From Alphaproteobacteria bacterium (GTDB lineage: Bacteria > Pseudomonadota > Alphaproteobacteria > CAAHEQ01 > UBA3637), in NCBI GenBank assembly GCA_045614025.1, contig JAZLCE010000017.1, positions 3,875-67,874 of the forward strand: a stretch of DNA of 64,000 nt, in the 5' to 3' direction. This document shows positions 6,427-57,500 of this stretch, one piece after another. The notes beneath the pieces were generated by a model, which was given only the letters and a program-made list of their open reading frames with translations, was not told the origin of the DNA and searched no databases. The position numbers were made by a program, and so were the translations under genes. Each line of letters starts with the position of its first letter. Positions within the stretch are counted from its first letter, which is position 1.

Positions 6427-6503
6427 GCACCCGTAGCTCAATTGGATAGAGCATCTGACTACGGATCAGAAGGTTGTAAGTTCGAATCCTGCCGGGTGCG
6501 CCA
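6427..6503 (+). tRNA. tRNA-Arg (anticodon ACG)
   Basis: Cloverleaf read by eye: acceptor GCACCCG/CGGGTGC, anticodon arm TCTGA-CTACGGA-TCAGA, T-loop TTCGAAT, encoded CCA. Confidence 0.9.
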
Positions 6504-6926: not shown

Positions 6927-9900
6927 CTAGAATCGAAGTTCTAATTTGATCATACCTGAGTGATCAACATATTCCTTCCTGAACGCCCCATTATATTCAA
7001 GTTTCAATGTTGTTCGATCATTAAGCTTGGTTTCAATGCCTGTTGAGATGCCAACACTCAAGCGATCAAGCGCTTCGCTGTTCACTGTGTAACTCGCACC
7101 ATTAGCAAGCGTGTTGAGCGCTGATACGTCATCGCTGATCACATCATACCCAACGTTAATGCCAACACTTGGTCGGATTTTACCCAAATCCCAAGCGGTT
7201 TTAATGCCCGCAATCGCCGTTAAGTAATCGCTTGTGGTGGCTTCAACCGTTGTTCCAAGCGTATCGGTATATCCTTCTTGTTTAACCGACAAGTAACGCA
7301 TACCAACTTCTGGCGTGATAATGGCATTTTGAAGTTTGATGTCATACCCCGTCATCACTTGAACGCCCCAAGAATCAACATCATAATTTGCTGTGCCTAC
7401 GTTTGAAAGAACTTGCTTTTCTTCATCATATTGACCGCGACTGAACGTTGCCAAGCCACTCATCCACCAAGCGTCTGGTTGATAATGCGCTGAGATAAAG
7501 CCTGTGTTTGTATCCACTTCTGTTCGGCGCAACTCTTCTTTTGCCGTTGTTTGACTGGTTGCATATCCAACTCCAAGTGTTAAAGCATCTGTTACTTTTG
7601 ATTGAACGCCCAAAACTCCACCTTGACTTCTGGCCTTAAAGCCATCTCCCATTGTGGACTTTGTTTTATCATAAAGCCCTTTAATATAAACTTTTGCTCT
7701 TGGTGTTTCTTCCCCACCCGAACGGCCAACTTTAGAGGATATATTATTTGAAGCCATTTGGGAAGAGATGATATGTAATTGGTTGAATAAGTTGGTGATT
7801 TGTGATTGATATATCGATCTATCTACGCCTTCTAATGCGTTCAAGGCTTTTTTTGCATTTAAAAAGACTCTCTTATCGTCAGATTGCAAAAGATTTAGAA
7901 GGTTTTCTTGAATATTAACAAAATCTTTATTTGTTGTATCATCAGATTTATTGAGCAAAGCTATTACAATATTAACTTCTGTGTTTAATAAGCCTAAATC
8001 TTCTTCTAAAAGTGCCGCTGCTTTTTTTGAAACAGAGTAAGAACCATCTTGCATATCAATGATATCTAATAGAGGATTTTCAATTAAAATCAATTCATTG
8101 TCTGAGTTAAATATTTTATAAACAGCGCCATTTTCTTTGATGCCATTTGTGAATTTAAGACTAAGTTTTGAATTTTCATCTCCTTCAATGTCGTCATATG
8201 ATAAAGTTCCATAATCTTCTAAACTGTTTAATGCAACTCTTAATGTTGAATCTTCGCCAAATTTAATCTTGTTAACAAAAACATTTTTATTGCTAATATC
8301 CAAAAGGGAACCATTTTGAATATCAAGATTATTAAAGTTAATTTTTTTTGCGTTCCCTGTTATATTCATATTATTTGAAACAACATTATTTGTGCCAGAT
8401 ATTTTATCCGATATATCTAAAGTTACGTTATTGAAAAAGAGATTCCCATTTCCAGTCAAGCTAGATAAAGAAATGTTTCCTTCGCCAATAATAGTTCCAG
8501 TATTAAGGATATTTTTATCAACTGTTATATTTTTAAGTGTTATATCAGCATTATTTGTTATTGCTGTATCTGCTGTTGTTTCTGAAATAATAACATTTTG
8601 AAGTGTGACGTGTCCTAATTGGTTATCTATAACCTTTTGGGCTCCTAAAATACTTAAATCTTTAATTGTAAGATTTGTATCTTCTTTATTTAATATAAAT
8701 AAATCATTTTCATTAGCATTAATTACGCTGTTTTTTGCATTGTTTGAAATTCCAAGAATTAATTTGTTGCCACTAGATAATGGTTCAAAAGTTTTCATTT
8801 TATCAATGGAATAAGTTGCAATAGTCCCATTTTTTGCCATTTTTAACGAGCTATTACCACCATAAGAAATCAAATACTCAAGAGGAGTTATATCATCTGA
8901 TAATTTATTGGCTTCAAAAATTAAATTTTTTCCTAATGTTGTTACCTTGTAGGTGTATGGTGATGTTGCTGTAAGTAAGTTTGTGCTTGTATTTTTAAAT
9001 GTTGCATTGCCATTTAAAATACTTGTTGTATAACTTATCTTGGGTGAAAAGCTTCCATTTTGATCTAATACTAAATTATCCACATAAGTGTTCAATAAAT
9101 CTGAATGCGATAGATTAAAATCAATTTCTGAAAACTCATAATTTGAGCCATTTAATGTTAGTTTGTCGGCTTTTAATGAGATTGATCCATCAGATTCCTT
9201 CATAAAATCGATATCAATTCCTAATTTTGCGCCATTTCCTTGTAAATTAGAAAATGAAATATTATCAATTTTTGAATTTTTTAAATCGATTATGTTACTA
9301 GAATCAATTTCATAAGCACCGGCATAGGTGTTTTGTTCTAATTTAATCAGGCTATCTTTAAATATAACTTTATTGATGCCATCGGTATTTGCAACATCAG
9401 TTTTGAGATTAAATGTGGCCCGTTCAATAGTATCACTTGTCAAAAGTTTGTTTTTTGCATCATAGGTGCCATATAAAATATTCCCATTGGTATCAAAACT
9501 CACATTTCCATCAGCATCAAATAAAGGGATTTTTATATCTGAAACAAAGGCAAGTTCTTTTTGTTTTTCATCTGGTGTATAAGCACCCAATAAAAGCGTT
9601 GATCCATCAAATGTTAAGTCGCTTGAAAATTCGAGTAATTGCTCAGTTGTATCTGTGGTTAAATACGAAAGTTGCGCACTTCCAGATACTGATACTTTAA
9701 GATTTTGTAAATTATCTCCATGAACGCGTAGTTCACCCCCAGTGATGGTATTGATTTTTGCAAAATTAAGTTTATCAACAGGAGCAATTGTCAGGCCATT
9801 ATTTTGGTTAAAATAGGAGGTGTTTGCATAAGAATTAATTGTTTTATCGCCAATTATAAGAACGCCACTCCCTGTTTTATTGATTGTTCCTCTGGATTGA

Positions 9901-10757
9901 GAAATGCCACTATCTAATATACCAATTTGATTATTTCCAAATTCAAAATTAACGGTCTTTTCATTCTGTATATCTTGTCCATTTTGTAATGTGTTATTAC
10001 GAATAGATGAGTTATCACTAAAAAGAAAAGAACCTTTAAAATTTATTGTTCCTGAATTATAAAAGCCGCCTCCTAATGCATAAGATCTTGTTGCATGAAC
10101 TTTATTCCCAATAACTATAGTATTTGAATTTTCTTCAAATGTTACAGTTTCTCTATAATTACTAAGAGCTCCACCAGAACCATATTCAGCGCCAGCTATA
10201 TTGTTTGCAAATATATTGATTGAGTTTTCAGCAAAAGTAATTATTCCATCATTGCTCTCAATTGCGCCACTGTCTGTTGACCGATTGTTTGTAAATATAG
10301 ATGTTCCTTTAAATTGAAGAGTGGCCTTATTTCCTTTATTTCTAATGGCGCCCCCCATGGCTTCTTCTGAATTTAAGATATTGCCAATAAATTTTACACC
10401 TCCATTAAACTCAACTTGGCCATAATTCATAATAGCGCCCCCAGATTCAAAGGCGGAATTATTTTTAAAAATAGCTAAATCATTAAATTTGATAATTCCA
10501 GTTGCATTATTTTTAATGGCACCACCATCTTGATTCCCAGCAGTTAAATTTTCAAATGTAACAACTTGATTATATTCTTTTTCACCCGTATTTTCTAATC
10601 TGGATTCTCCAGCCATAGAAAAGGAAGAAAAAGTTAGAGAAACAGATATCACCAAATTCAAAAGGAAGCATTTTTTTAGGATGTTGAGATATCGTTTTTT
10701 TAATTCACGTAATGTGGTTTTTGAATAATGTGACATGATGTCCCCCTCTAATGCCAT
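6927..10757 (-). CDS. Pmp-repeat autotransporter (1276 aa), complete
   Basis: N-terminal signal/TM, multiple GGAI..N / FxxN repeats, and a C-terminal beta-barrel ending ..KLELRF. Alternative start at 10736 (MSHYSK) has the better SD (GAGGGGGA). Confidence 0.85.
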   Translation of the reverse strand: MALEGDIMSHYSKTTLRELKKRYLNILKKCFLLNLVISVSLTFSSFSMAGESRLENTGEKEYNQVVTFENLTAGNQDGGAIKNNATGIIKFNDLAIFKNNSAFESGGAIMNYGQVEFNGGVKFIGNILNSEEAMGGAIRNKGNKATLQFKGTSIFTNNRSTDSGAIESNDGIITFAENSINIFANNIAGAEYGSGGALSNYRETVTFEENSNTIVIGNKVHATRSYALGGGFYNSGTINFKGSFLFSDNSSIRNNTLQNGQDIQNEKTVNFEFGNNQIGILDSGISQSRGTINKTGSGVLIIGDKTINSYANTSYFNQNNGLTIAPVDKLNFAKINTITGGELRVHGDNLQNLKVSVSGSAQLSYLTTDTTEQLLEFSSDLTFDGSTLLLGAYTPDEKQKELAFVSDIKIPLFDADGNVSFDTNGNILYGTYDAKNKLLTSDTIERATFNLKTDVANTDGINKVIFKDSLIKLEQNTYAGAYEIDSSNIIDLKNSKIDNISFSNLQGNGAKLGIDIDFMKESDGSISLKADKLTLNGSNYEFSEIDFNLSHSDLLNTYVDNLVLDQNGSFSPKISYTTSILNGNATFKNTSTNLLTATSPYTYKVTTLGKNLIFEANKLSDDITPLEYLISYGGNSSLKMAKNGTIATYSIDKMKTFEPLSSGNKLILGISNNAKNSVINANENDLFILNKEDTNLTIKDLSILGAQKVIDNQLGHVTLQNVIISETTADTAITNNADITLKNITVDKNILNTGTIIGEGNISLSSLTGNGNLFFNNVTLDISDKISGTNNVVSNNMNITGNAKKINFNNLDIQNGSLLDISNKNVFVNKIKFGEDSTLRVALNSLEDYGTLSYDDIEGDENSKLSLKFTNGIKENGAVYKIFNSDNELILIENPLLDIIDMQDGSYSVSKKAAALLEEDLGLLNTEVNIVIALLNKSDDTTNKDFVNIQENLLNLLQSDDKRVFLNAKKALNALEGVDRSIYQSQITNLFNQLHIISSQMASNNISSKVGRSGGEETPRAKVYIKGLYDKTKSTMGDGFKARSQGGVLGVQSKVTDALTLGVGYATSQTTAKEELRRTEVDTNTGFISAHYQPDAWWMSGLATFSRGQYDEEKQVLSNVGTANYDVDSWGVQVMTGYDIKLQNAIITPEVGMRYLSVKQEGYTDTLGTTVEATTSDYLTAIAGIKTAWDLGKIRPSVGINVGYDVISDDVSALNTLANGASYTVNSEALDRLSVGISTGIETKLNDRTTLKLEYNGAFRKEYVDHSGMIKLELRF

Positions 10758-27082: not shown

Positions 27083-27446
27083 GTCAGATGATCGGATAAT
27101 CGCTGAAAGGAAACTTTTGGAGGAAAGTCCGGGCTTCACGGAAACACGATACTGGATAACGTCCAGCTGGGGTGACCCACGGGATAGCGCCATAGAAAAC
27201 AAACCGCCAATTTTTATTGGTAAGGGTGAAACGGCGGGGTAAGAGCCCACCGCATTTTAAGCAATTAAAATGGCACGGCAAGCCCTATCGGAAGCAAGAC
27301 CAAGTAAAGAGAGCCAAAGAGTAATCTTTGTTAAAATGAGCGTTTCTGATCTGCTCTCAAGAGGTAGGTCGCTAGAGGTAAGTAGTAATGCTTATCCAAG
27401 ACGAATGATTATCGATTACAAAACCCGGCTTATAGATTGTCTGACA
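27083..27446 (+). ncRNA. rnpB: RNase P RNA, bacterial type A
   Basis: Universally conserved GGAGGAAAGTCCGGGCT near the 5' end and ACAAAACCCGGCTTAT near the 3' end. P1 pairing is GTCAGA/TCTGAC. Ends are approximate (+/-5 nt). Confidence 0.9.
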
Positions 27447-27531
27447 TTTTTTTTAAAATTTTTTTTGTTTTTTTAAATTTTTTGCTTGCATTTATATTTT
27501 TTTTGGTGTATATAAATAACTACTTTATCAA

Positions 27532-50010: not shown

Positions 50011-50042
50011 ACCCTTGTTTATAAAAAAACAAGGGTTTTTCT
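50011..50042 (+). terminator. Intrinsic terminator after smpB
   Basis: ACCCTTG-loop-CAAGGGT-T5. Confidence 0.75.
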
Positions 50043-50071: not shown

Positions 50072-50100
50072 TTGACAATTTTGTTATTTTATGATATAAT
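50072..50100 (+). promoter_or_regulatory. Sigma70-like promoter of the helicase gene
   Basis: TTGACA-N17-TATAAT. The track ORF start (TTG at 50072) is actually the -35 box. Confidence 0.6.
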
Positions 50101-50125
50101 TGCAAAAATTTTAGAGGGGAATCAT

Positions 50126-52636
50126 ATGAAACAACAAAATTTTAATGCGCTTATTCATGGATTAAAAACTTTTTTACCAAGTGTTGATTTAAGGTCTGCA
50201 CAAAAAGATATTTTTGAAGAATTTTTATCAAGAACAGATGAAAATTTAACCAAAGGCTTTTTTGATCTTGCCACTGGTTTTGGCAAAACCAGAATGATGA
50301 ATGTTTTGACCGAGGGGTATTTATCTCAAAATCCAAAAGGAAAAGTTGTGGTTGTTGTGCCAACCCAAAGTTTGATTAAAGATGAAAATGGCGAGGGGAT
50401 GATTAAGCGCTTTCAAGATTTTCATCAAATGTATCATTCTGAACCATTAAGCATTGGTTCTTTTTATTCGTATGGTAAAGATACAACCAGCAATGTTATT
50501 GTAACAACTTATTCTTCACTCAATACCTTTGCTAACAACATTAACCCAAAAGAAGTTGGCCTTTTGTTGTTGGATGAAGCTCACCACTCATTGTCTGAAA
50601 AAAGAATGGATGCGATCAAAGAATTTTCAAATGCTTGTTGTTATGGTTTAACGGCAACGCCAGCTTATTCCCCAGATAAAAATTTGGAAAATTTGTTAGG
50701 TTCAGTTATTGCTGAAATGAATACGGTTCAAGCCGTAAAAGATGGATTGCTTACGCCTTGTAAAAATGTTTTGCTTTCATCTAAAATTAAGGTGGACTTG
50801 AGTTCTATTTCAAAAACAAGAACAGGTGAATATAATGAAGCCGAACTTGAAAAAGTGCTTTCTCAAGCTCTGAAATCTTATCAAGAAAATGGAAATGCAA
50901 AAAATTGGAAAAATGTGCATGAGTTAATTGCAAATGAAATTGCTATGTTTTATCAAAACTATGTGGATGAAACGGTTGGTAAAGTTCAAGGTAAAAAATG
51001 CATGATTAACTGTCGCTCTCAAGCAGAAGCAAAATTACAGGCCAGAGCGTTAAATAAATTGTTTGGGAAAACAGTTGCAGGTACTTGGACAACGGATACA
51101 AAAGATAAAACAATTTTGAATAAATTTGTGAATGGTGATTTACCTATTTTGTGCCAGGTTGGGAAACTCTCTGAAGGGTTTGATATGCCTAAATTGGATA
51201 TGTGTATCAACTATCCAACTTGTTCCAGAGTGGTTGAAGCACAACGTGGGGGGCGTGTTTTGCGTCTTAATCCAGAAAATGAAAATAAGTTTTCTCTGAT
51301 TGTGGATGTTGTTTTTGCGCATCCAGATTATGATAACCCAATTTTGTCTTCGCATACCAATGGGCAAGTGCTCTATCGTGATATTACAAATAAAAGTGTG
51401 ATGCTAAAAGATAAAAAGTTAGAGGATCGGGCGGGTGTTTTAAAAACACAAGAGAGAAAAGAGCGAGAGTCATCCAATCTATTACTTGAAGCTTTTGATA
51501 TTTTTTCCAATATTGAAGAGTTGATTACACTTGAAAATGAGGCAGATATTGAACTTAAAGATCAAAATCTTCCATTAAAAAGAGACGGGATGAAATCATC
51601 TCTTGATTTAAAACGTTTGTTAGGTAAAACCGATGTTTTTTACAAGAAACAGTTACAAAAATATTATGATGAAAATAGAACTTTTGAAGTTGATGGTGTC
51701 CAATATCCATTGGTAGAAAAAGTAAAGTCAGGATCGAAAATAGCCTTGGTTTTGCATGAACACAAAAATGCTCTTGAAACATTTAAAAAACTGTTGAAAA
51801 AAGATGGAAATGATCTTGATATTCCAGTAAAAAGAGACGGGATGAAATCTACTACAGAGTTAATTTTGTTGTTTAAAAAAAATGGTGCATTTTTTGCAGA
51901 AAAACTACAAAAATATTATGAAGAAAATAAAATGTTTGAGGTTGATGGGATTCAATATCCATTGGTAGAAAAAGTAAAGTCAGGATCGAAAATTGTATTG
52001 GCTTTGCATGAACATGAAAATGCATTAAAAGTATTCAAAAAGCTTTTATTAAGTAGTGTTTGTAACGTTCCTGAAAAAAGAAATGGTATGAAAACACGAT
52101 ATGATTTAGCCTTGATGTTGAATAGAAGTCGTTTCTTTTTTTCAAAATGGTTACAAAAATATTATAATGAAAATAGAATTTTTGAGGTTGATGGAGTTCA
52201 ATATCCGTTGGTTGAAAAAGTTAAATCAGGTGGGTGCATTACATTAGCTTTGTCTGAGCATACAAAGGCTTTTGAAATTTTTAAAAAACTTTTGGAAAAA
52301 GAGGGTCTTGTTTTTGATGTTCCTGCTAAAAGAAAGAAAATGAAATCCAGCTTTGATTTAACAATATTATTTCATAAAACAACAGCTTTTTTTCCAAGGT
52401 GGTTGCAAAAATATTATGATGAAAACAAAACTTTTGAGGTTGATGGAGTTCAATATCCATTGGTTGAAAAAGTTAAATCAGGTGGGGGCATTACATTAGC
52501 TCTTCATGAACATCCATTGGCACTTGAAACATTTAAAAAGTTATTAGAAAAAGATGGCATTGTTTTGAAAGAAAGAAAAATTGCTTCTCAAAAACAAAAT
52601 CTTTTACCCATTCAAAAGAAGCAAAAAAGGCGATAA
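50126..52636 (+). CDS. SF2 (ResIII/DEAH-type) helicase fused to four C-terminal tandem repeats
   Basis: Motifs I ATGFGKT, II LLLDEAHH, III GLTATP, VI QRGGRVLR. These are followed by 4 x 82-84 aa repeats. GAGGGG SD before the ATG at 50126. Confidence 0.8.
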   Translation: MKQQNFNALIHGLKTFLPSVDLRSAQKDIFEEFLSRTDENLTKGFFDLATGFGKTRMMNVLTEGYLSQNPKGKVVVVVPTQSLIKDENGEGMIKRFQDFHQMYHSEPLSIGSFYSYGKDTTSNVIVTTYSSLNTFANNINPKEVGLLLLDEAHHSLSEKRMDAIKEFSNACCYGLTATPAYSPDKNLENLLGSVIAEMNTVQAVKDGLLTPCKNVLLSSKIKVDLSSISKTRTGEYNEAELEKVLSQALKSYQENGNAKNWKNVHELIANEIAMFYQNYVDETVGKVQGKKCMINCRSQAEAKLQARALNKLFGKTVAGTWTTDTKDKTILNKFVNGDLPILCQVGKLSEGFDMPKLDMCINYPTCSRVVEAQRGGRVLRLNPENENKFSLIVDVVFAHPDYDNPILSSHTNGQVLYRDITNKSVMLKDKKLEDRAGVLKTQERKERESSNLLLEAFDIFSNIEELITLENEADIELKDQNLPLKRDGMKSSLDLKRLLGKTDVFYKKQLQKYYDENRTFEVDGVQYPLVEKVKSGSKIALVLHEHKNALETFKKLLKKDGNDLDIPVKRDGMKSTTELILLFKKNGAFFAEKLQKYYEENKMFEVDGIQYPLVEKVKSGSKIVLALHEHENALKVFKKLLLSSVCNVPEKRNGMKTRYDLALMLNRSRFFFSKWLQKYYNENRIFEVDGVQYPLVEKVKSGGCITLALSEHTKAFEIFKKLLEKEGLVFDVPAKRKKMKSSFDLTILFHKTTAFFPRWLQKYYDENKTFEVDGVQYPLVEKVKSGGGITLALHEHPLALETFKKLLEKDGIVLKERKIASQKQNLLPIQKKQKRR
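51572..52573 (+). repeat. Four in-frame tandem repeats (252/246/252/252 nt)
   Basis: Units start at 51572, 51824, 52070 and 52322. Consensus is P.KR.GMKS..DL..L....FF...LQKYY.EN..FEVDG.QYPLVEKVKSG..I.LALHEH..AL..FKKLL.K.G. The 69-nt core of units 3 and 4 differs at 2 positions. Confidence 0.9.
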
Positions 52637-52657: not shown

Positions 52658-52690
52658 CAAAAACCCACTGAAAGTAAACAGTGGGTTTTA
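52658..52690. terminator. Bidirectional terminator between the helicase gene and der
   Basis: CCCACTG-loop-CAGTGGG with flanking A/T runs. Confidence 0.65.
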
Positions 52691-55487: not shown

Positions 55488-56168
55488 TTACATGCCGGAT
55501 AAAAGCATATTCATCCGATCGGTTGCGTTTGGTGTTAAATTAGGATTTAAAAGAGCGTCTTGCAATATTTTTAAAGCTTCTTCTTTCTTGTTTGCTTTTA
55601 AAAGAAGAGCGGTTTTTAATTCGATTGCAGAGGCAAAATAAGCACTGTTTTGATTTAAAAGAGGTGTTAATAATGAAAGAAGTTCATCAATATTTCCTGA
55701 TTCAACTTGATGACCAACATAGCTGAGTAATGCAACATTTTTAAGGGCTTCAGGAGCGTTCTTTGTTTCAAAAACAGCCTTTAAAATTGTTAAAGCTTCT
55801 GTTTGGTTATTATTTGATAAATAAATGCCAGCTTTTTTGAGCTCAGCTAAATACTTATAATCAGTTTTTGCTGTTTTAGAAAGCAAATTTAAATCATTTA
55901 AAGCAGCTTCTTTTTCGCCCTTTGCATTTAAAACTGCGGCTTTTTCAAATAAATTTGATTCGGTTAAACGAACTTGTTTATGCCAAGAAAGATACATTTC
56001 TGTTCCCGCAACACTCACAATAACTGCAACAACACCGCCGATGAGCAAAAAACGATATTTGTTCCAAAAATTAAGTAATCTTTCTTTTTGAAGCTCTTCT
56101 TCAACTTCGCGGTCTAAAATGGCTTGTTGAATGCGCTCAATTTCATCTTGGGTTTGTTGTTTTTTCAT
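55488..56168 (-). CDS. YfgM-like single-pass TPR-like protein
   Basis: N-terminal TM (FLLIGGVVAVIVSVAG) plus a helical repeat domain. Conserved position upstream of bamB. Confidence 0.55.
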   Translation of the reverse strand: MKKQQTQDEIERIQQAILDREVEEELQKERLLNFWNKYRFLLIGGVVAVIVSVAGTEMYLSWHKQVRLTESNLFEKAAVLNAKGEKEAALNDLNLLSKTAKTDYKYLAELKKAGIYLSNNNQTEALTILKAVFETKNAPEALKNVALLSYVGHQVESGNIDELLSLLTPLLNQNSAYFASAIELKTALLLKANKKEEALKILQDALLNPNLTPNATDRMNMLLSGM

Positions 56169-57133: not shown

Positions 57134-57220
57134 GCCTCTATGGCGAAACTGGTAGACGCGACAGACTCAAAATCTGTTGACCGCAAGGTCATGCTGGTTC
57201 AAGTCCGGCTAGAGGTACCA
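57134..57220 (+). tRNA. tRNA-Leu (anticodon CAA)
   Basis: Acceptor GCCTCTA/TAGAGGT, anticodon arm ACAGA-CTCAAAA-TCTGT, long variable arm, T-arm GCTGG-TTCAAGT-CCGGC, encoded CCA. Confidence 0.9.
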
Positions 57221-57358
57221 AAAATTAAAACCACCCACATCGGGTGGTTTTTTTATTCCTTTTCAAACGCTTATGCCGGTTCGATAATAGTTCGATTGTG
57301 GAGGGCTTGTTTTGGAAGTTTATCGAACTTTTAGGAGGATATTTTGCTATAAAACAGG
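57215..57358 (+). repeat. att-like repeat, copy A (tRNA-Leu 3' end + hairpin + about 105 bp)
   Basis: GTACCAAAA + terminator hairpin + TTTTTTTATT. Then 57280-57358 matches 59822-59900 at 63/79 positions ungapped (counted by hand). Confidence 0.8.
57227..57254 (+). terminator. Intrinsic terminator after tRNA-Leu(CAA)
   Basis: CCACCC-ACATC-GGGTGG-T7. Confidence 0.8.
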
Positions 57359-57500
57359 CGCTTGTTCTGAGTGAAATTTCAGTTGAGATCCCATGATTAA
57401 AATGAGAAATATATAAAAAAATAATGAAATTAAAAAAAATACATGCTATGCTTTCTCAAAATCAAAGGCAAATTGTTTTAAATTTCGAAAGGAATTGTCC

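What the first reader, a model, noticed from the sequence alone, without database searches (positions are those of the whole stretch)
50126..52636. SF2 helicase fused to four 82-84 aa tandem repeats of an unrecognised domain
Seen: the N-terminal ~440 aa carries ResIII/DEAH helicase motifs (ATGFGKT, DEAH, TATP, QRGGRVLR). The C-terminal ~335 aa is four head-to-tail repeats with units at 51572, 51824, 52070 and 52322, sharing the core LQKYY.EN..FEVDG.QYPLVEKVKSG..I.LALHEH..AL..FKKLL. Units 1/2 and 3/4 form pairs. The 69-nt core of units 3 and 4 differs at only 2 positions, which implies recent duplication or gene conversion. The gene is monocistronic, with a consensus TTGACA-N17-TATAAT promoter and flanking terminators, and is wedged between smpB and der. 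I do not recognise the repeat as any named domain. A multivalent nucleic-acid- or protein-binding array on a helicase could mark a novel effector or defence protein.
Basis: partly seen in the sequence, partly recalled or inferred. Interest (0 to 1): 0.7.

Follow-up and report, generated by a model that had tools for sequence, protein, structure and literature searches.

The report
Helicase with a hypervariable DNA-reader array
A chromosomal helicase of uncultured gut Alphaproteobacteria carries four tandem copies of an uncatalogued winged-helix-like domain. The predicted DNA-reading residues of these copies evolve under diversifying selection, and the whole array is swapped between strains, so it looks like an ATP motor with an exchangeable address label.

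Summary
Window 50126-52636 (+) encodes an 836-aa protein with an intact SF2 helicase core (aa 1-440) and four tandem units of 82-84 aa. It has its own consensus promoter and flanking terminators and lies between smpB and der. The array is not an assembly artefact: units are only 67-75% identical in DNA, and an independent assembly has the same array.

The repeat matches no Pfam, NCBIfam, PHROG or PADLOC family. It folds confidently (pLDDT 96) as helix-turn-helix, four-stranded wing and helix. Its only structural neighbours are weak matches to winged-helix regulators. Only 246 of 1.84 billion cluster representatives carry it.

New findings:
- Copy number ranges from 1 to 8.
- The array is a hypervariable cassette. 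Genomes 98-100% identical in the flanks carry arrays about 72% identical, whereas the window shares a 99.2% identical array with a genome only 82% identical overall.
- The HTH segment (codons 9-27) has dN/dS of about 2.6, against 0.43 for the rest of the unit.

Best reading: a RadD/XPB-like DNA translocase targeted by a modular, strain-variable DNA-reading array. What it is used for is unknown; a role in genetic conflict is possible. It does not belong to any known defence system.

The parts
50011..50036 (+). Hairpin terminator after smpB. It separates the helicase gene from the upstream operon.
   Evidence: 10-bp stem, T-run on both sides; sequence.
50072..50100 (+). Sigma-70 promoter TTGACA-17-TATAAT with an extended -10 TG.
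   Evidence: (12/12 matches, TG present).
50113..50119 (+). Ribosome-binding site AGAGGGG, 7 nt before the ATG.
   Evidence: read directly from the sequence.
50126..52636 (+). Complete coding sequence: 836 aa plus stop.
   Evidence: Homologues share the MKQQNFN start.
50126..51445 (+). SF2 helicase/translocase core (aa 1-440) with motifs I, II, III and VI intact.
   Evidence: Pfam ResIII/DEAD/Helicase_C. Invariant motif residues. AF2 full-length model with Foldseek top hits RadD, XPB, type ISP/HsdR motors and Hef.
51446..51571 (+). Acidic linker (aa 441-482, pI 4.1). It has a disordered stretch followed by a conserved strand and helix (F.I.S..EEL..LE.EA).
   Evidence: charge; pLDDT below 50 at 431-449; E457-460, H463-480; consensus.
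51572..51823 (+). Winged-helix-like unit 1 (84 aa). Its hypervariable HTH segment is codons 9-27, at 51596-51652.
51824..52069 (+). Unit 2 (82 aa). HTH segment at 51848-51904.
52070..52321 (+). Unit 3 (84 aa). HTH segment at 52094-52150.
52322..52567 (+). Unit 4 (82 aa). HTH segment at 52346-52402.
52568..52633 (+). Basic, disordered C-terminal tail (22 aa, pI 11.8; KERKIASQKQ...KKQKRR). A related 'L(K/E)ER(K/T)..S' tail follows the last unit in distant relatives.
   Evidence: charge; pLDDT below 50 at 818-836; tails of P0026, P0031, P0124, P0132.
51572..52537 (+). Exchanged cassette: 966 nt with only 8 mismatches to contig L001. The neighbouring DNA in L001 is 70-90% identical.
52660..52689 (.). 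Bidirectional hairpin terminator shared with the convergent der gene.

Best explanation
The gene encodes a clade-specific, catalytically intact SF2 DNA-dependent ATPase/translocase of the RadD/XPB/Hef/HsdR-motor type. An acidic flexible linker joins its C-terminus to an array of four basic, divergent winged helix-turn-helix modules, followed by a basic tail.

Proposed mechanism:
- Each module reads a short stretch of DNA with the N-cap of its first helix, the turn, positions 1, 2, 5 and 6 of its recognition helix, and the wing tip.
- The array as a whole acts as a composite, strain-specific 'address' that anchors or loads the motor on particular DNA.
- The motor then pulls or opens neighbouring DNA, as an anchored translocase does (XPB in TFIIH, HsdR on a type I enzyme, FtsK loaded by its gamma winged helix).

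The address is evolutionarily programmable. Units are gained, lost and homogenised. The reading residues are under diversifying selection. Whole arrays are swapped between lineages by homologous recombination in the conserved flanks.

Shown here:
- the domain architecture, intact motifs and fold class
- the rarity of the domain and its copy-number variation
- cassette exchange
- the excess of amino-acid changes in the HTH segment.

Inferred, not shown:
- that the ligand is DNA
- that binding is sequence-specific
- the anchored-translocase action
- the biological purpose.
For: Motor:
- ResIII/DEAD/Helicase_C domains are present and motif residues are invariant in 40 homologues.
- The full-length AF2 model has pLDDT 85.
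- Its best PDB matches are RadD (5.7e-16), XPB, the type ISP LlaBIII motor, EcoR124I HsdR and Hef (sequence level).
- phrog_16 'DNA helicase' matches at 7e-47.

Modules:
- The AF2 model of one unit has pLDDT 96.3 and pTM 0.85, with topology H-T-H + 4 strands + H.
- The listed top 50 Foldseek PDB neighbours are almost all winged-helix or related DNA-binding proteins (CadC, ArsR, SmtB, MarR, TFE-alpha, TubR, AspA), though the matches are weak.
- Profile hits to wHTH chains are likewise weak.
- Divergent family members hit HTH_11 and HTH_IclR above Pfam cut-offs when summed over units, and wHTH-PRTase_assc over its full length. Profile neighbours are tandem HTH proteins.
- Units have pI 9.3-9.4 and the tail pI 11.8.

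Variability:
- Relatives carry 1, 3, 4, 5, 6 or 8 units.
- Median helicase identity is 90% against 54% for the array. Several pairs have 97-98% identical helicases but 61-68% identical arrays.
- L001 and L007 have flanks 98-100% identical but arrays about 72% identical with a one-unit indel. No unit of one is more than 82% identical to any unit of the other.
- The window and L001 are 82% identical overall but 99.2% identical over exactly the four units.

Selection:
- Five independent recently diverged unit pairs were tested.
- HTH codons 9-27 give dN/dS 2.65 (Fisher p = 0.016). The rest of the unit gives 0.43.
- The nonsynonymous rate is about 6-fold higher in the HTH segment (odds ratio 7.9, p = 9e-18), while synonymous rates are equal (p = 0.62).
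- The variable positions are 10, 11, 14, 17-22, 25, 26 and 54-57 in every lineage.
Against: - No binding or ATPase data exist.
- The winged-helix assignment rests on weak structural matches (best E = 0.07, TM 0.48) and on transitive sequence links, not on a significant direct hit.
- Winged helices can also bind RNA or proteins.
- The most conserved surface is the beta-sheet/wing (LQKYY, FEVDG.QYPLVEKVKSG), not the HTH. The common ligand might therefore be contacted there, with the HTH merely tolerant of change.
- The dN/dS test uses paralogous units that undergo gene conversion. The segment was defined from entropy in close relatives, although it was tested mostly on other lineages. The p = 0.016 result is modest.
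- All related sequences are metagenome assemblies, so strain mixing could blur some mosaics.
- pTM 0.58 means the relative placement of motor and array is not predicted.
Confidence: 0.5

Rival explanations
1. It is an anti-phage or anti-plasmid defence (or other genetic-conflict) protein. The variable array recognises foreign DNA or is the target of phage inhibitors, and the motor disrupts the invader's replication or transcription. This overlaps with the best explanation and differs only in purpose.
For: - Hypervariable cassette with trans-lineage allele sharing.
- Diversifying selection on the reading residues.
- The motor resembles HsdR and type ISP motors and the helicase part of PbeA and Dnd-associated restriction enzymes.
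- A Schlafen-type helicase islet lies 5 kb away in the window.
Against: - There is no nuclease, methylase or other effector domain.
- The gene is monocistronic.
- It sits in fixed housekeeping synteny (prmA-pepP-smpB-X-der-bamB) down to 61% identity, and in other housekeeping neighbourhoods in more distant relatives.
- PADLOC hits cover only the generic helicase part.
- The array has no relatives in phages, plasmids or IMG/VR.
Confidence: 0.25
2. It is an RNA helicase or RNP remodeller acting in translation or ribosome biogenesis. The tandem winged helices bind structured RNA, as the four winged helices of SelB bind the SECIS hairpin or the C-terminal domain of DbpA binds 23S rRNA.
For: - Neighbours are often translation-related: smpB, der and prmA in the window; rplM-rpsI upstream in L003; rpmE in L014; infC in L017; def-fmt-truA in L016.
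- One unit gives a weak SelB-wing_3 hit.
- RIG-I-like dsRNA helicases also appear among the fold matches.
Against: - The neighbours are in separate transcription units and differ between lineages.
- The best fold and sequence matches of the motor are DNA translocases.
- A hypervariable reading surface under diversifying selection is hard to reconcile with a conserved rRNA or tmRNA ligand.
Confidence: 0.1
3. It is a secreted effector acting on the DNA of a eukaryotic host cell (a 'nucleomodulin'). The array would work like a TALE-type programmable DNA reader, and the basic C-terminal tail would serve as a secretion and/or nuclear-localisation signal.
For: - A basic, disordered C-terminal tail is conserved in type across distant relatives.
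- Array evolution resembles that of TALEs: unit turnover and hypervariable reading residues.
- In one relative a eukaryote-type mTERF gene ends 29 nt upstream of the homologue.
Against: - Nothing examined shows a secretion system or an intracellular lifestyle.
- The gene has a housekeeping location and a consensus sigma-70 promoter.
- Basic tails are common in nucleic-acid-binding proteins.
- This reading is entirely inferential.
Confidence: 0.05
4. The repeat number or the mosaic pattern is an assembly artefact of short-read metagenomics.
For: - Some contigs end inside the array: L010, and the truncated P0019, P0022 and P0024.
- All relatives are metagenome-assembled.
Against: - Units are only 67-75% identical in DNA, and the longest stretch with 2 or fewer mismatches is 70 nt.
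- An independent assembly gives the same four-unit array.
- The junction between the diverged linker and the near-identical array has mismatches every few bases up to 51571. No long shared k-mer exists there to cause a chimeric join.
- The same allele classes recur in several independent assemblies.
Confidence: 0.02

Closest known systems
RadD (E. coli YejH) and archaeal/eukaryotic XPB: SF2 DNA-dependent ATPases/translocases
   Same: The two RecA-like lobes have the ResIII-type N-lobe and motifs I, II, III and VI. These are the best structural matches of the full-length model (RadD 5.7e-16, XPB 2e-15) and sequence-level PDB matches (XPBII 1e-7, Hef 2e-9).
   Different: Identity is about 20%. 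The NCBIfam RadD model scores 37 bits against a cut-off of 720, and the XPB model 17 against 610. No Pfam or NCBIfam match suggests RadD's zinc motif and C-terminal domain or XPB's damage-recognition domain, although these were not examined residue by residue. None of these proteins has a tandem winged-helix array.
Winged helix-turn-helix DNA-binding domains (ArsR/SmtB, MarR, IclR, TFE-alpha, TubR type)
   Same: Two helices form an HTH, followed by a beta wing. The listed top 50 Foldseek PDB neighbours are almost all of this kind. Weak profile hits go to wHTH chains. Divergent family members reach HTH_11 and HTH_IclR.
   Different: No significant direct match was found (best E = 0.07, TM 0.48). 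The usual first helix is missing, the wing is a four-stranded meander, and a C-terminal helix is added. No curated family covers the domain.
Enzymes carrying tandem winged helices: SelB (four C-terminal winged helices on a GTPase) and Lhr (SF2 helicase with a winged helix and a tandem winged-helix C-terminal region; PMC7437997, PMC10953399)
   Same: An NTPase or helicase is fused to several winged-helix modules that position it on a nucleic acid.
   Different: In those proteins the modules are distinct, fixed in number and conserved. Here they are true tandem repeats with variable number and hypervariable reading residues. Whether SelB's winged helices are structurally similar was not tested beyond one weak Pfam hit. 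The statement about SelB architecture rests on general knowledge.
Motors with a sequence-reading anchor: herpesvirus UL9 (SF2 helicase plus origin-binding domain; PMC13261067), FtsK gamma winged helix reading KOPS, type I restriction HsdR anchored by HsdS
   Same: They share the proposed working principle: a specific DNA-binding part loads or anchors a translocase that then acts on adjacent DNA. HsdS specificity domains are likewise swapped by recombination between strains (general knowledge).
   Different: There is no homology of the DNA-binding parts, no methylase or nuclease partner here, and the anchor is in the same polypeptide as four repeats. This is an analogy only; no activity has been tested.
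Modular repeat readers with hypervariable positions (TALE repeats, zinc-finger arrays, Pipsqueak tandem HTH)
   Same: Tandem units have a conserved scaffold and a few fast-evolving reading positions. Unit number changes and units are homogenised by recombination.
   Different: The fold is different. The unit is much larger (82-84 aa). No recognition code has been demonstrated, and the array is fused to a helicase.

Membership tests
SF2 helicase superfamily (ResIII / DEAD-DEAH + Helicase_C) | Two RecA-like lobes with Walker A (motif I), DExH (motif II), motif III and the arginine-finger motif VI. | tested here: met
   Pfam ResIII 1.6e-25, DEAD 2e-11 and Helicase_C 1.2e-7, all above cut-offs. 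GFGKT, DEAH, TATP and QRGGR are invariant in 40 homologues. The fold matches 811 PDB chains at E <= 0.001.
RadD (NCBIfam NF053632) | Full-length equivalog score of at least 720 bits; zinc-binding motif and SSB-binding C-terminal domain. | tested here: not met
   The score is 37.3 bits, covering aa 21-395 only. The C-terminus is instead the repeat array.
XPB (NF045503) / Hef (NF010337) | Equivalog score of at least 610 bits; N-terminal damage-recognition domain (XPB) or C-terminal nuclease (Hef). | tested here: not met
   Scores are 16.6 and 35.4 bits. No nuclease domain was found in Pfam.
Dnd/Pbe phosphorothioate-dependent restriction helicases (TIGR04095, PADLOC PbeA) | Full-length match including the N-terminal effector part, and partner genes (dnd or pbeBCD) adjacent. 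| tested here: not met
   TIGR04095 scores 57 bits against a cut-off of 600. PbeA profiles match only their helicase part, positions 251-635 of 672. The neighbours are smpB and der.
Type I / type ISP restriction motor subunits | A PD-(D/E)xK nuclease on the motor subunit, and adjacent methylase or specificity genes. | tested here: not met
   Only weak REase_I helicase-part hits were found (2e-6). There is no nuclease domain and no hsdM/hsdS in the locus.
Winged helix-turn-helix superfamily | A helix-turn-helix followed by a beta-hairpin wing, with significant structural or profile similarity to known members. | tested here: inconclusive
   The topology fits and nearly all listed neighbours are wHTH proteins, but the best E is 0.07 with TM 0.48. 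Profile-to-PDB hits range from 0.017 to 0.3. The transitive link runs through P0124, which matches the repeat profile at 5e-49 and matches HTH_11 at 35.5 bits and HTH_IclR at 33.9 bits, summed over units.
Any curated repeat or domain family (Pfam-A, NCBIfam, PHROGs, PADLOC) | A match of a single unit at or above the family threshold. | tested here: not met
   No unit of the window protein matches any family. Of 65 + 51 units scanned one by one, only scattered weak HTH hits appear.
DNA-binding, sequence-specific modular reader (functional class) | Demonstrated binding to DNA with unit-dependent specificity. | not testable with these tools
   Only indirect evidence is available: basic units, and variable positions that coincide with canonical HTH reading positions and have dN/dS above 1.

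The most novel reading that the evidence does not exclude
The array is a naturally programmable DNA-address system. Each 82-84-aa winged-helix unit reads a few base pairs through about ten hypervariable positions. Strains exchange whole addresses by recombination. The attached helicase is thereby sent to strain-specific DNA targets, either as a new nuclease-free mode of defence or competition against mobile elements or, less likely, as an injected effector acting on host DNA. It would be a third kind of modular DNA-recognition code, beside zinc fingers and TALEs, coupled to a motor.
Probability: 0.15. Interest if true: 0.85.

Novelty: new variant of a known kind. Interest (0 to 1): 0.66.

Why it matters
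Helicases with accessory winged-helix domains are common. In this family, however, the accessory part is a true tandem repeat of an uncatalogued domain. That repeat changes copy number, is replaced wholesale between otherwise near-identical genomes, and shows an excess of amino-acid changes at the positions an HTH uses to read bases.

If the units do read DNA, three things follow:
- It would be a compact, natural example of a modular, evolvable DNA-targeting array fused to an ATP motor. That is of interest for understanding how bacteria direct translocases to particular DNA, and possibly as a design scaffold.
- It would point to an unrecognised arena of diversifying selection in a poorly known group of uncultured gut Alphaproteobacteria.
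- The domain deserves a family entry, since about 250 sequence clusters carry it.

Tried and rejected
- Single units and the whole array against Pfam, NCBIfam, PHROGs and PADLOC: no family found. Scanning 116 units one by one gave only scattered weak HTH hits.
- Repeat profile against PDB sequences: the top hits are designed helical-repeat proteins, matched only through short low-scoring stretches. I judged them meaningless.
- Foldseek of one unit against PDB and against viral predicted structures: nothing at E <= 0.001.
- Exact look-up of the window protein in the contig index: not on record.
- Array against plasmids, phages (helicase part only, about 25% identity), IMG/VR and JGI metagenomes: no relatives. 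The repeat alignment was too diverse for pattern-based locus search.
- A second copy of the repeat, or an mTERF gene, in the window: none.
- dN/dS over all 40 units of close relatives: synonymous sites are saturated (dS about 1), so the 0.68 versus 0.25 contrast was uninformative. I replaced it with recently diverged unit pairs.
- Continued HMM iteration beyond round 7 drifted into generic HTH repeat proteins, so I did not use it for family counts.
- Unit shuffling as the cause of low array identity between L001 and L007: rejected, because no unit pair exceeds 82%.
- Literature searches for helicases with tandem winged-helix arrays, or for bacterial mTERF-helicase pairs, found nothing on this family.
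Full report
**1. What is in the sequence**

The ORF at 50072-52636 (+) exists. The real start is ATG 50126. An AGAGGGG ribosome-binding site lies 7 nt upstream, the TTG at 50072 is the -35 box of the promoter, and every homologue begins MKQQNFN.

The 836-aa product has ResIII, DEAD and Helicase_C domains over aa 20-400. Their key residues are invariant in an alignment of 40 homologues, so the ATPase should be active.

From aa 483 there are four head-to-tail units of 84, 82, 84 and 82 aa, followed by a 22-aa basic tail.

A 12/12 TTGACA-17-TATAAT promoter with an extended -10 TG lies at 50072-50100. Hairpin terminators lie at 50011-50036 and 52660-52689. The neighbours are prmA, an M24 aminopeptidase and smpB upstream, and convergent der, bamB and a YfgM-like gene downstream.

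Units 3 and 4 do share a 70-nt stretch with only 2 mismatches. Overall, however, units are only 67-75% identical in DNA.

**2. The array is not an artefact**

Units this different cannot be collapsed or inflated by an assembler. In addition, contig L001 from a separate metagenome assembly carries the same four units with 8 mismatches in 966 nt.

Arrays do sometimes break short-read contigs. L010 ends inside the array, and P0019, P0022 and P0024 are truncated.

**3. What the repeat is**

No unit matches any family in Pfam, NCBIfam, PHROGs or PADLOC.

I built a repeat profile from the homologues. With that alignment, AlphaFold2 gives a very confident single-unit model: pLDDT 96.3 and pTM 0.85. 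The topology is a short strand pair, helix 10-17, turn, helix 21-33, a four-stranded antiparallel meander at 37-61, and helix 65-77. The full-length model reproduces this fold four times.

Foldseek finds no significant neighbour in the PDB or among viral models. Even so, the listed top 50 PDB hits are almost all winged-helix or related DNA-binding proteins, including CadC, ArsR, SmtB, CzrA, MarR, TFE-alpha, TubR and AspA. The best hit has E = 0.07 and TM 0.48. A profile search of PDB sequences gives the same weak picture.

A transitive sequence link exists:
- P0124 matches the repeat profile at 5e-49.
- P0124 in turn reaches HTH_11 (35.5 bits) and HTH_IclR (33.9 bits) when summed over its eight units, and matches wHTH-PRTase_assc over that model's full length.
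- Lower-ranking profile neighbours are tandem HTH proteins.

I conclude that the unit is a divergent, uncatalogued winged helix-turn-helix variant. It lacks the usual first helix and has an enlarged wing and an extra C-terminal helix. The fold class is known; the family is not.

The units are basic (pI 9.3-9.4), the tail is very basic (pI 11.8), and the linker is acidic and partly disordered.

**4. Distribution**

An exhaustive profile search of 1.84 billion cluster representatives finds 246 proteins at E <= 0.001, and only 24 at E <= 1e-30.

The named relatives are all 'DEAD/DEAH box helicase family protein' from uncultured Alphaproteobacteria, for example MBO7243656.1 and MBR6412701.1. The species-representative genomes holding close relatives are gut MAGs from sheep, yak and roe deer, among others.

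Most carriers have the same helicase in front of the array. A few sequences appear to be arrays without a helicase, or arrays followed by unknown C-terminal parts (P0118, P0124, P0128, P0137). Small one-unit proteins also occur. Some of these may be fragments.

The array has no relatives in phage, plasmid, IMG/VR or JGI metagenome collections.

**5. Genomic context**

The prmA-pepP-smpB-helicase-der-bamB order is kept in relatives of 92% and 61% identity.

More distant relatives (35-43% identity) sit in other neighbourhoods, which in most cases are also housekeeping:
- rplM-rpsI
- rpmE
- ruvC-yebC...infC
- parC
- def-fmt-truA

The gene is always alone, with no integrase, nuclease, methylase or other partner nearby. 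One genome has two paralogues. This is not the context of a mobile defence island.

**6. The motor**

The full-length model has pLDDT 85.4. Its pTM of 0.58 means the inter-domain geometry is uncertain.

It matches RadD best (5.7e-16), followed by XPB, the type ISP enzyme LlaBIII, EcoR124I HsdR, Ssl2 in TFIIH, and Hef. Sequence searches agree:
- Hef 2e-9 and XPBII 1e-7
- phage 'DNA helicase' family phrog_16 at 7e-47
- phage helicases annotated 'DNA helicase' at about 25% identity

All equivalog models fall far below their cut-offs: RadD 37 bits against 720, XPB 17 against 610, Hef 35 against 610, and the Dnd restriction enzyme 57 against 600. PADLOC's PbeA profiles match only their helicase part.

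The protein is thus a member of the SF2 superfamily, nearest to dsDNA translocases, but it belongs to none of the named families.

**7. New finding: the array is a hypervariable, exchangeable cassette**

*Copy number.* Counts of 1, 3, 4, 5, 6 and 8 units occur. Units are also gained or lost within one allele class. P0010 and P0013 are 96.7% identical with 4 versus 3 units. P0009 and P0012 are 96.1% identical with 5 versus 4 units.

*Helicase versus array.* Among the window protein and 18 close relatives, median helicase identity is 90% but median array identity is 54%. Many pairs have 97-98% identical helicases and 61-68% identical arrays. At the DNA level, the array is the most diverged segment in 34 of 36 locus pairs.

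*Cleanest case, L001 versus L007.* Identity is 95-100% (mostly 98-100%) over 3.2 kb upstream and 4.5 kb downstream. From the linker to just past the stop codon it falls to about 72%, with a one-unit indel. No L007 unit is more than 82% identical to any L001 unit, so this is replacement by a divergent allele, not reshuffling.

*Converse case, window versus L001.* The two are 82% identical over 12.6 kb. The linker is about 73% identical. The stretch 51572-52537, exactly the four units, is 99.2% identical, and divergence resumes at 52538.

Array alleles are therefore old, and they move between lineages by recombination in the conserved flanks.

**8. New finding: selection on the reading surface**

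Entropy along the unit is concentrated in residues 9-27. The strongly conserved elements are LQKYY, F38, G42, YPLVEKVKS, LALHEH and the last helix.

Comparisons among all units were saturated at synonymous sites. I therefore used recently diverged units within single proteins, one pair from each of five proteins, four of them from lineages not used to define the segment.

| Segment | Nonsynonymous | Synonymous | dN/dS | Fisher p |
|---|---|---|---|---|
| Codons 9-27 (HTH) | 55.2 / 221 sites | 6.8 / 64 sites | 2.65 | 0.016 |
| Rest of unit | 28.5 / 697 sites | 16.5 / 180 sites | 0.43 | 0.012 |

The nonsynonymous rate is about six times higher in the HTH segment (odds ratio 7.9, p = 9e-18). Synonymous rates do not differ (p = 0.62).

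In every lineage the variable positions are 10, 11, 14, 17-22, 25 and 26, plus the wing tip at 54-57. These correspond to the N-cap of the first HTH helix, the turn, and positions 1, 2, 5 and 6 of the recognition helix. From general knowledge of HTH-DNA complexes, these are the places that contact bases.

Caveats:
- The units are paralogues subject to gene conversion.
- Pairs were chosen by identity.
- The p-value for dN > dS is modest.

**9. Interpretation**

Most likely (confidence about 0.5), this is a DNA translocase whose C-terminal array is a modular, strain-variable DNA-reading anchor. The array binds a composite site and the motor acts on adjacent DNA, in the manner of XPB, HsdR or FtsK-gamma.

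The architecture, fold class, variability and selection pattern are shown. DNA binding, specificity and anchored translocation are inferred.

What the protein is used for is open:
- A conflict-related role (defence, or competition with mobile elements) fits the population genetics. It does not fit the absence of an effector domain or the housekeeping context (about 0.25, and not exclusive of the mechanism above).
- An RNA or ribosome role is suggested only by the neighbours and is hard to square with a hypervariable reading surface (about 0.1).
- A secreted TALE-like effector is a speculative reading. It rests on the basic tail and on a neighbouring mTERF gene in one relative (about 0.05).

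**10. Verdict**

The domain is uncatalogued and probably a nucleic-acid-binding array, but it is a winged-helix variant rather than a new fold, and membership of a defence system is not supported.

I classify it as a new variant of a known kind, namely an SF2 helicase with accessory winged-helix modules, and give it an interest score of 0.66.

Noticed in passing
L003 4836-5972 (and the same gene in L004): A bacterial gene with an mTERF domain (PF02536, 56.6 bits against a cut-off of 23.1) ends 29 nt before the helicase homologue P0023 (43% identical, 5 units), downstream of rplM-rpsI. mTERF is typically an organellar, eukaryote-type nucleic-acid-binding repeat protein. The window contains no such gene.
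   Followed up: partly
window 57134-62643: Directly after a tRNA gene (57134-57217) lies a 711-aa ORF with a Schlafen group 3 / DUF2075-type helicase domain (PF09848, 8e-67). Two further ORFs follow without any Pfam match (60020-61432 +, 61501-62643 -). Most of this stretch (about 57.3-61.4 kb) has no counterpart in the otherwise collinear contig L001, so it looks like a small variable islet at a tRNA, possibly defence-related.
   Followed up: partly
L013 and L014 (both from assembly GCA_017539265.1): One genome carries two paralogues of the helicase family on different contigs. P0034 has six units. P0037 has only one or two units and a different C-terminal part.
   Followed up: no
L015 5001-7604: The distant relative P0046 carries five or six tandem copies of a different HTH-like unit (W..L.QL......TV..YVEQYRNNHP.WFK.GK). 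It lies next to a second DEAD-box helicase in a stretch of many small ORFs that includes a terminase small subunit, probably a prophage or phage.
   Followed up: no
window 52568-52633; C-termini of P0026, P0031, P0124, P0132, P0028: After the last unit, distant family members share a tail motif: '(L/V)(K/E)ER(K/T)(I/T)(A/S)(S/P)...' followed by a basic, disordered stretch. P0026, P0031, P0124 and P0132 have near-identical '...SPTLQ.RLKAGS..GKPKAPPVRK..TPE(I/L)' tails. Its function is unknown; it could be a partner-binding or localisation peptide.
   Followed up: no
window 6930-10757 (-): A 1276-aa ORF with a C-terminal autotransporter beta-domain (PF03797, 6e-35). A similar gene lies next to the helicase homologue in L018.
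   Followed up: no
window 27084-27448 (+) and five tRNA genes: An RNase P RNA of class A (293 bits), and tRNAs at 6427, 27532, 29295, 35901 and 57134. These are ordinary chromosomal features.
   Followed up: no
window 55491-56168 (-): The YfgM-like TPR_21 protein also matches DUF2659 over nearly the full model (26.2 bits, just under the 27.7 cut-off). From memory, DUF2659 is a family from Rickettsia-like bacteria. This may hint at the organism's affinities.
   Followed up: no
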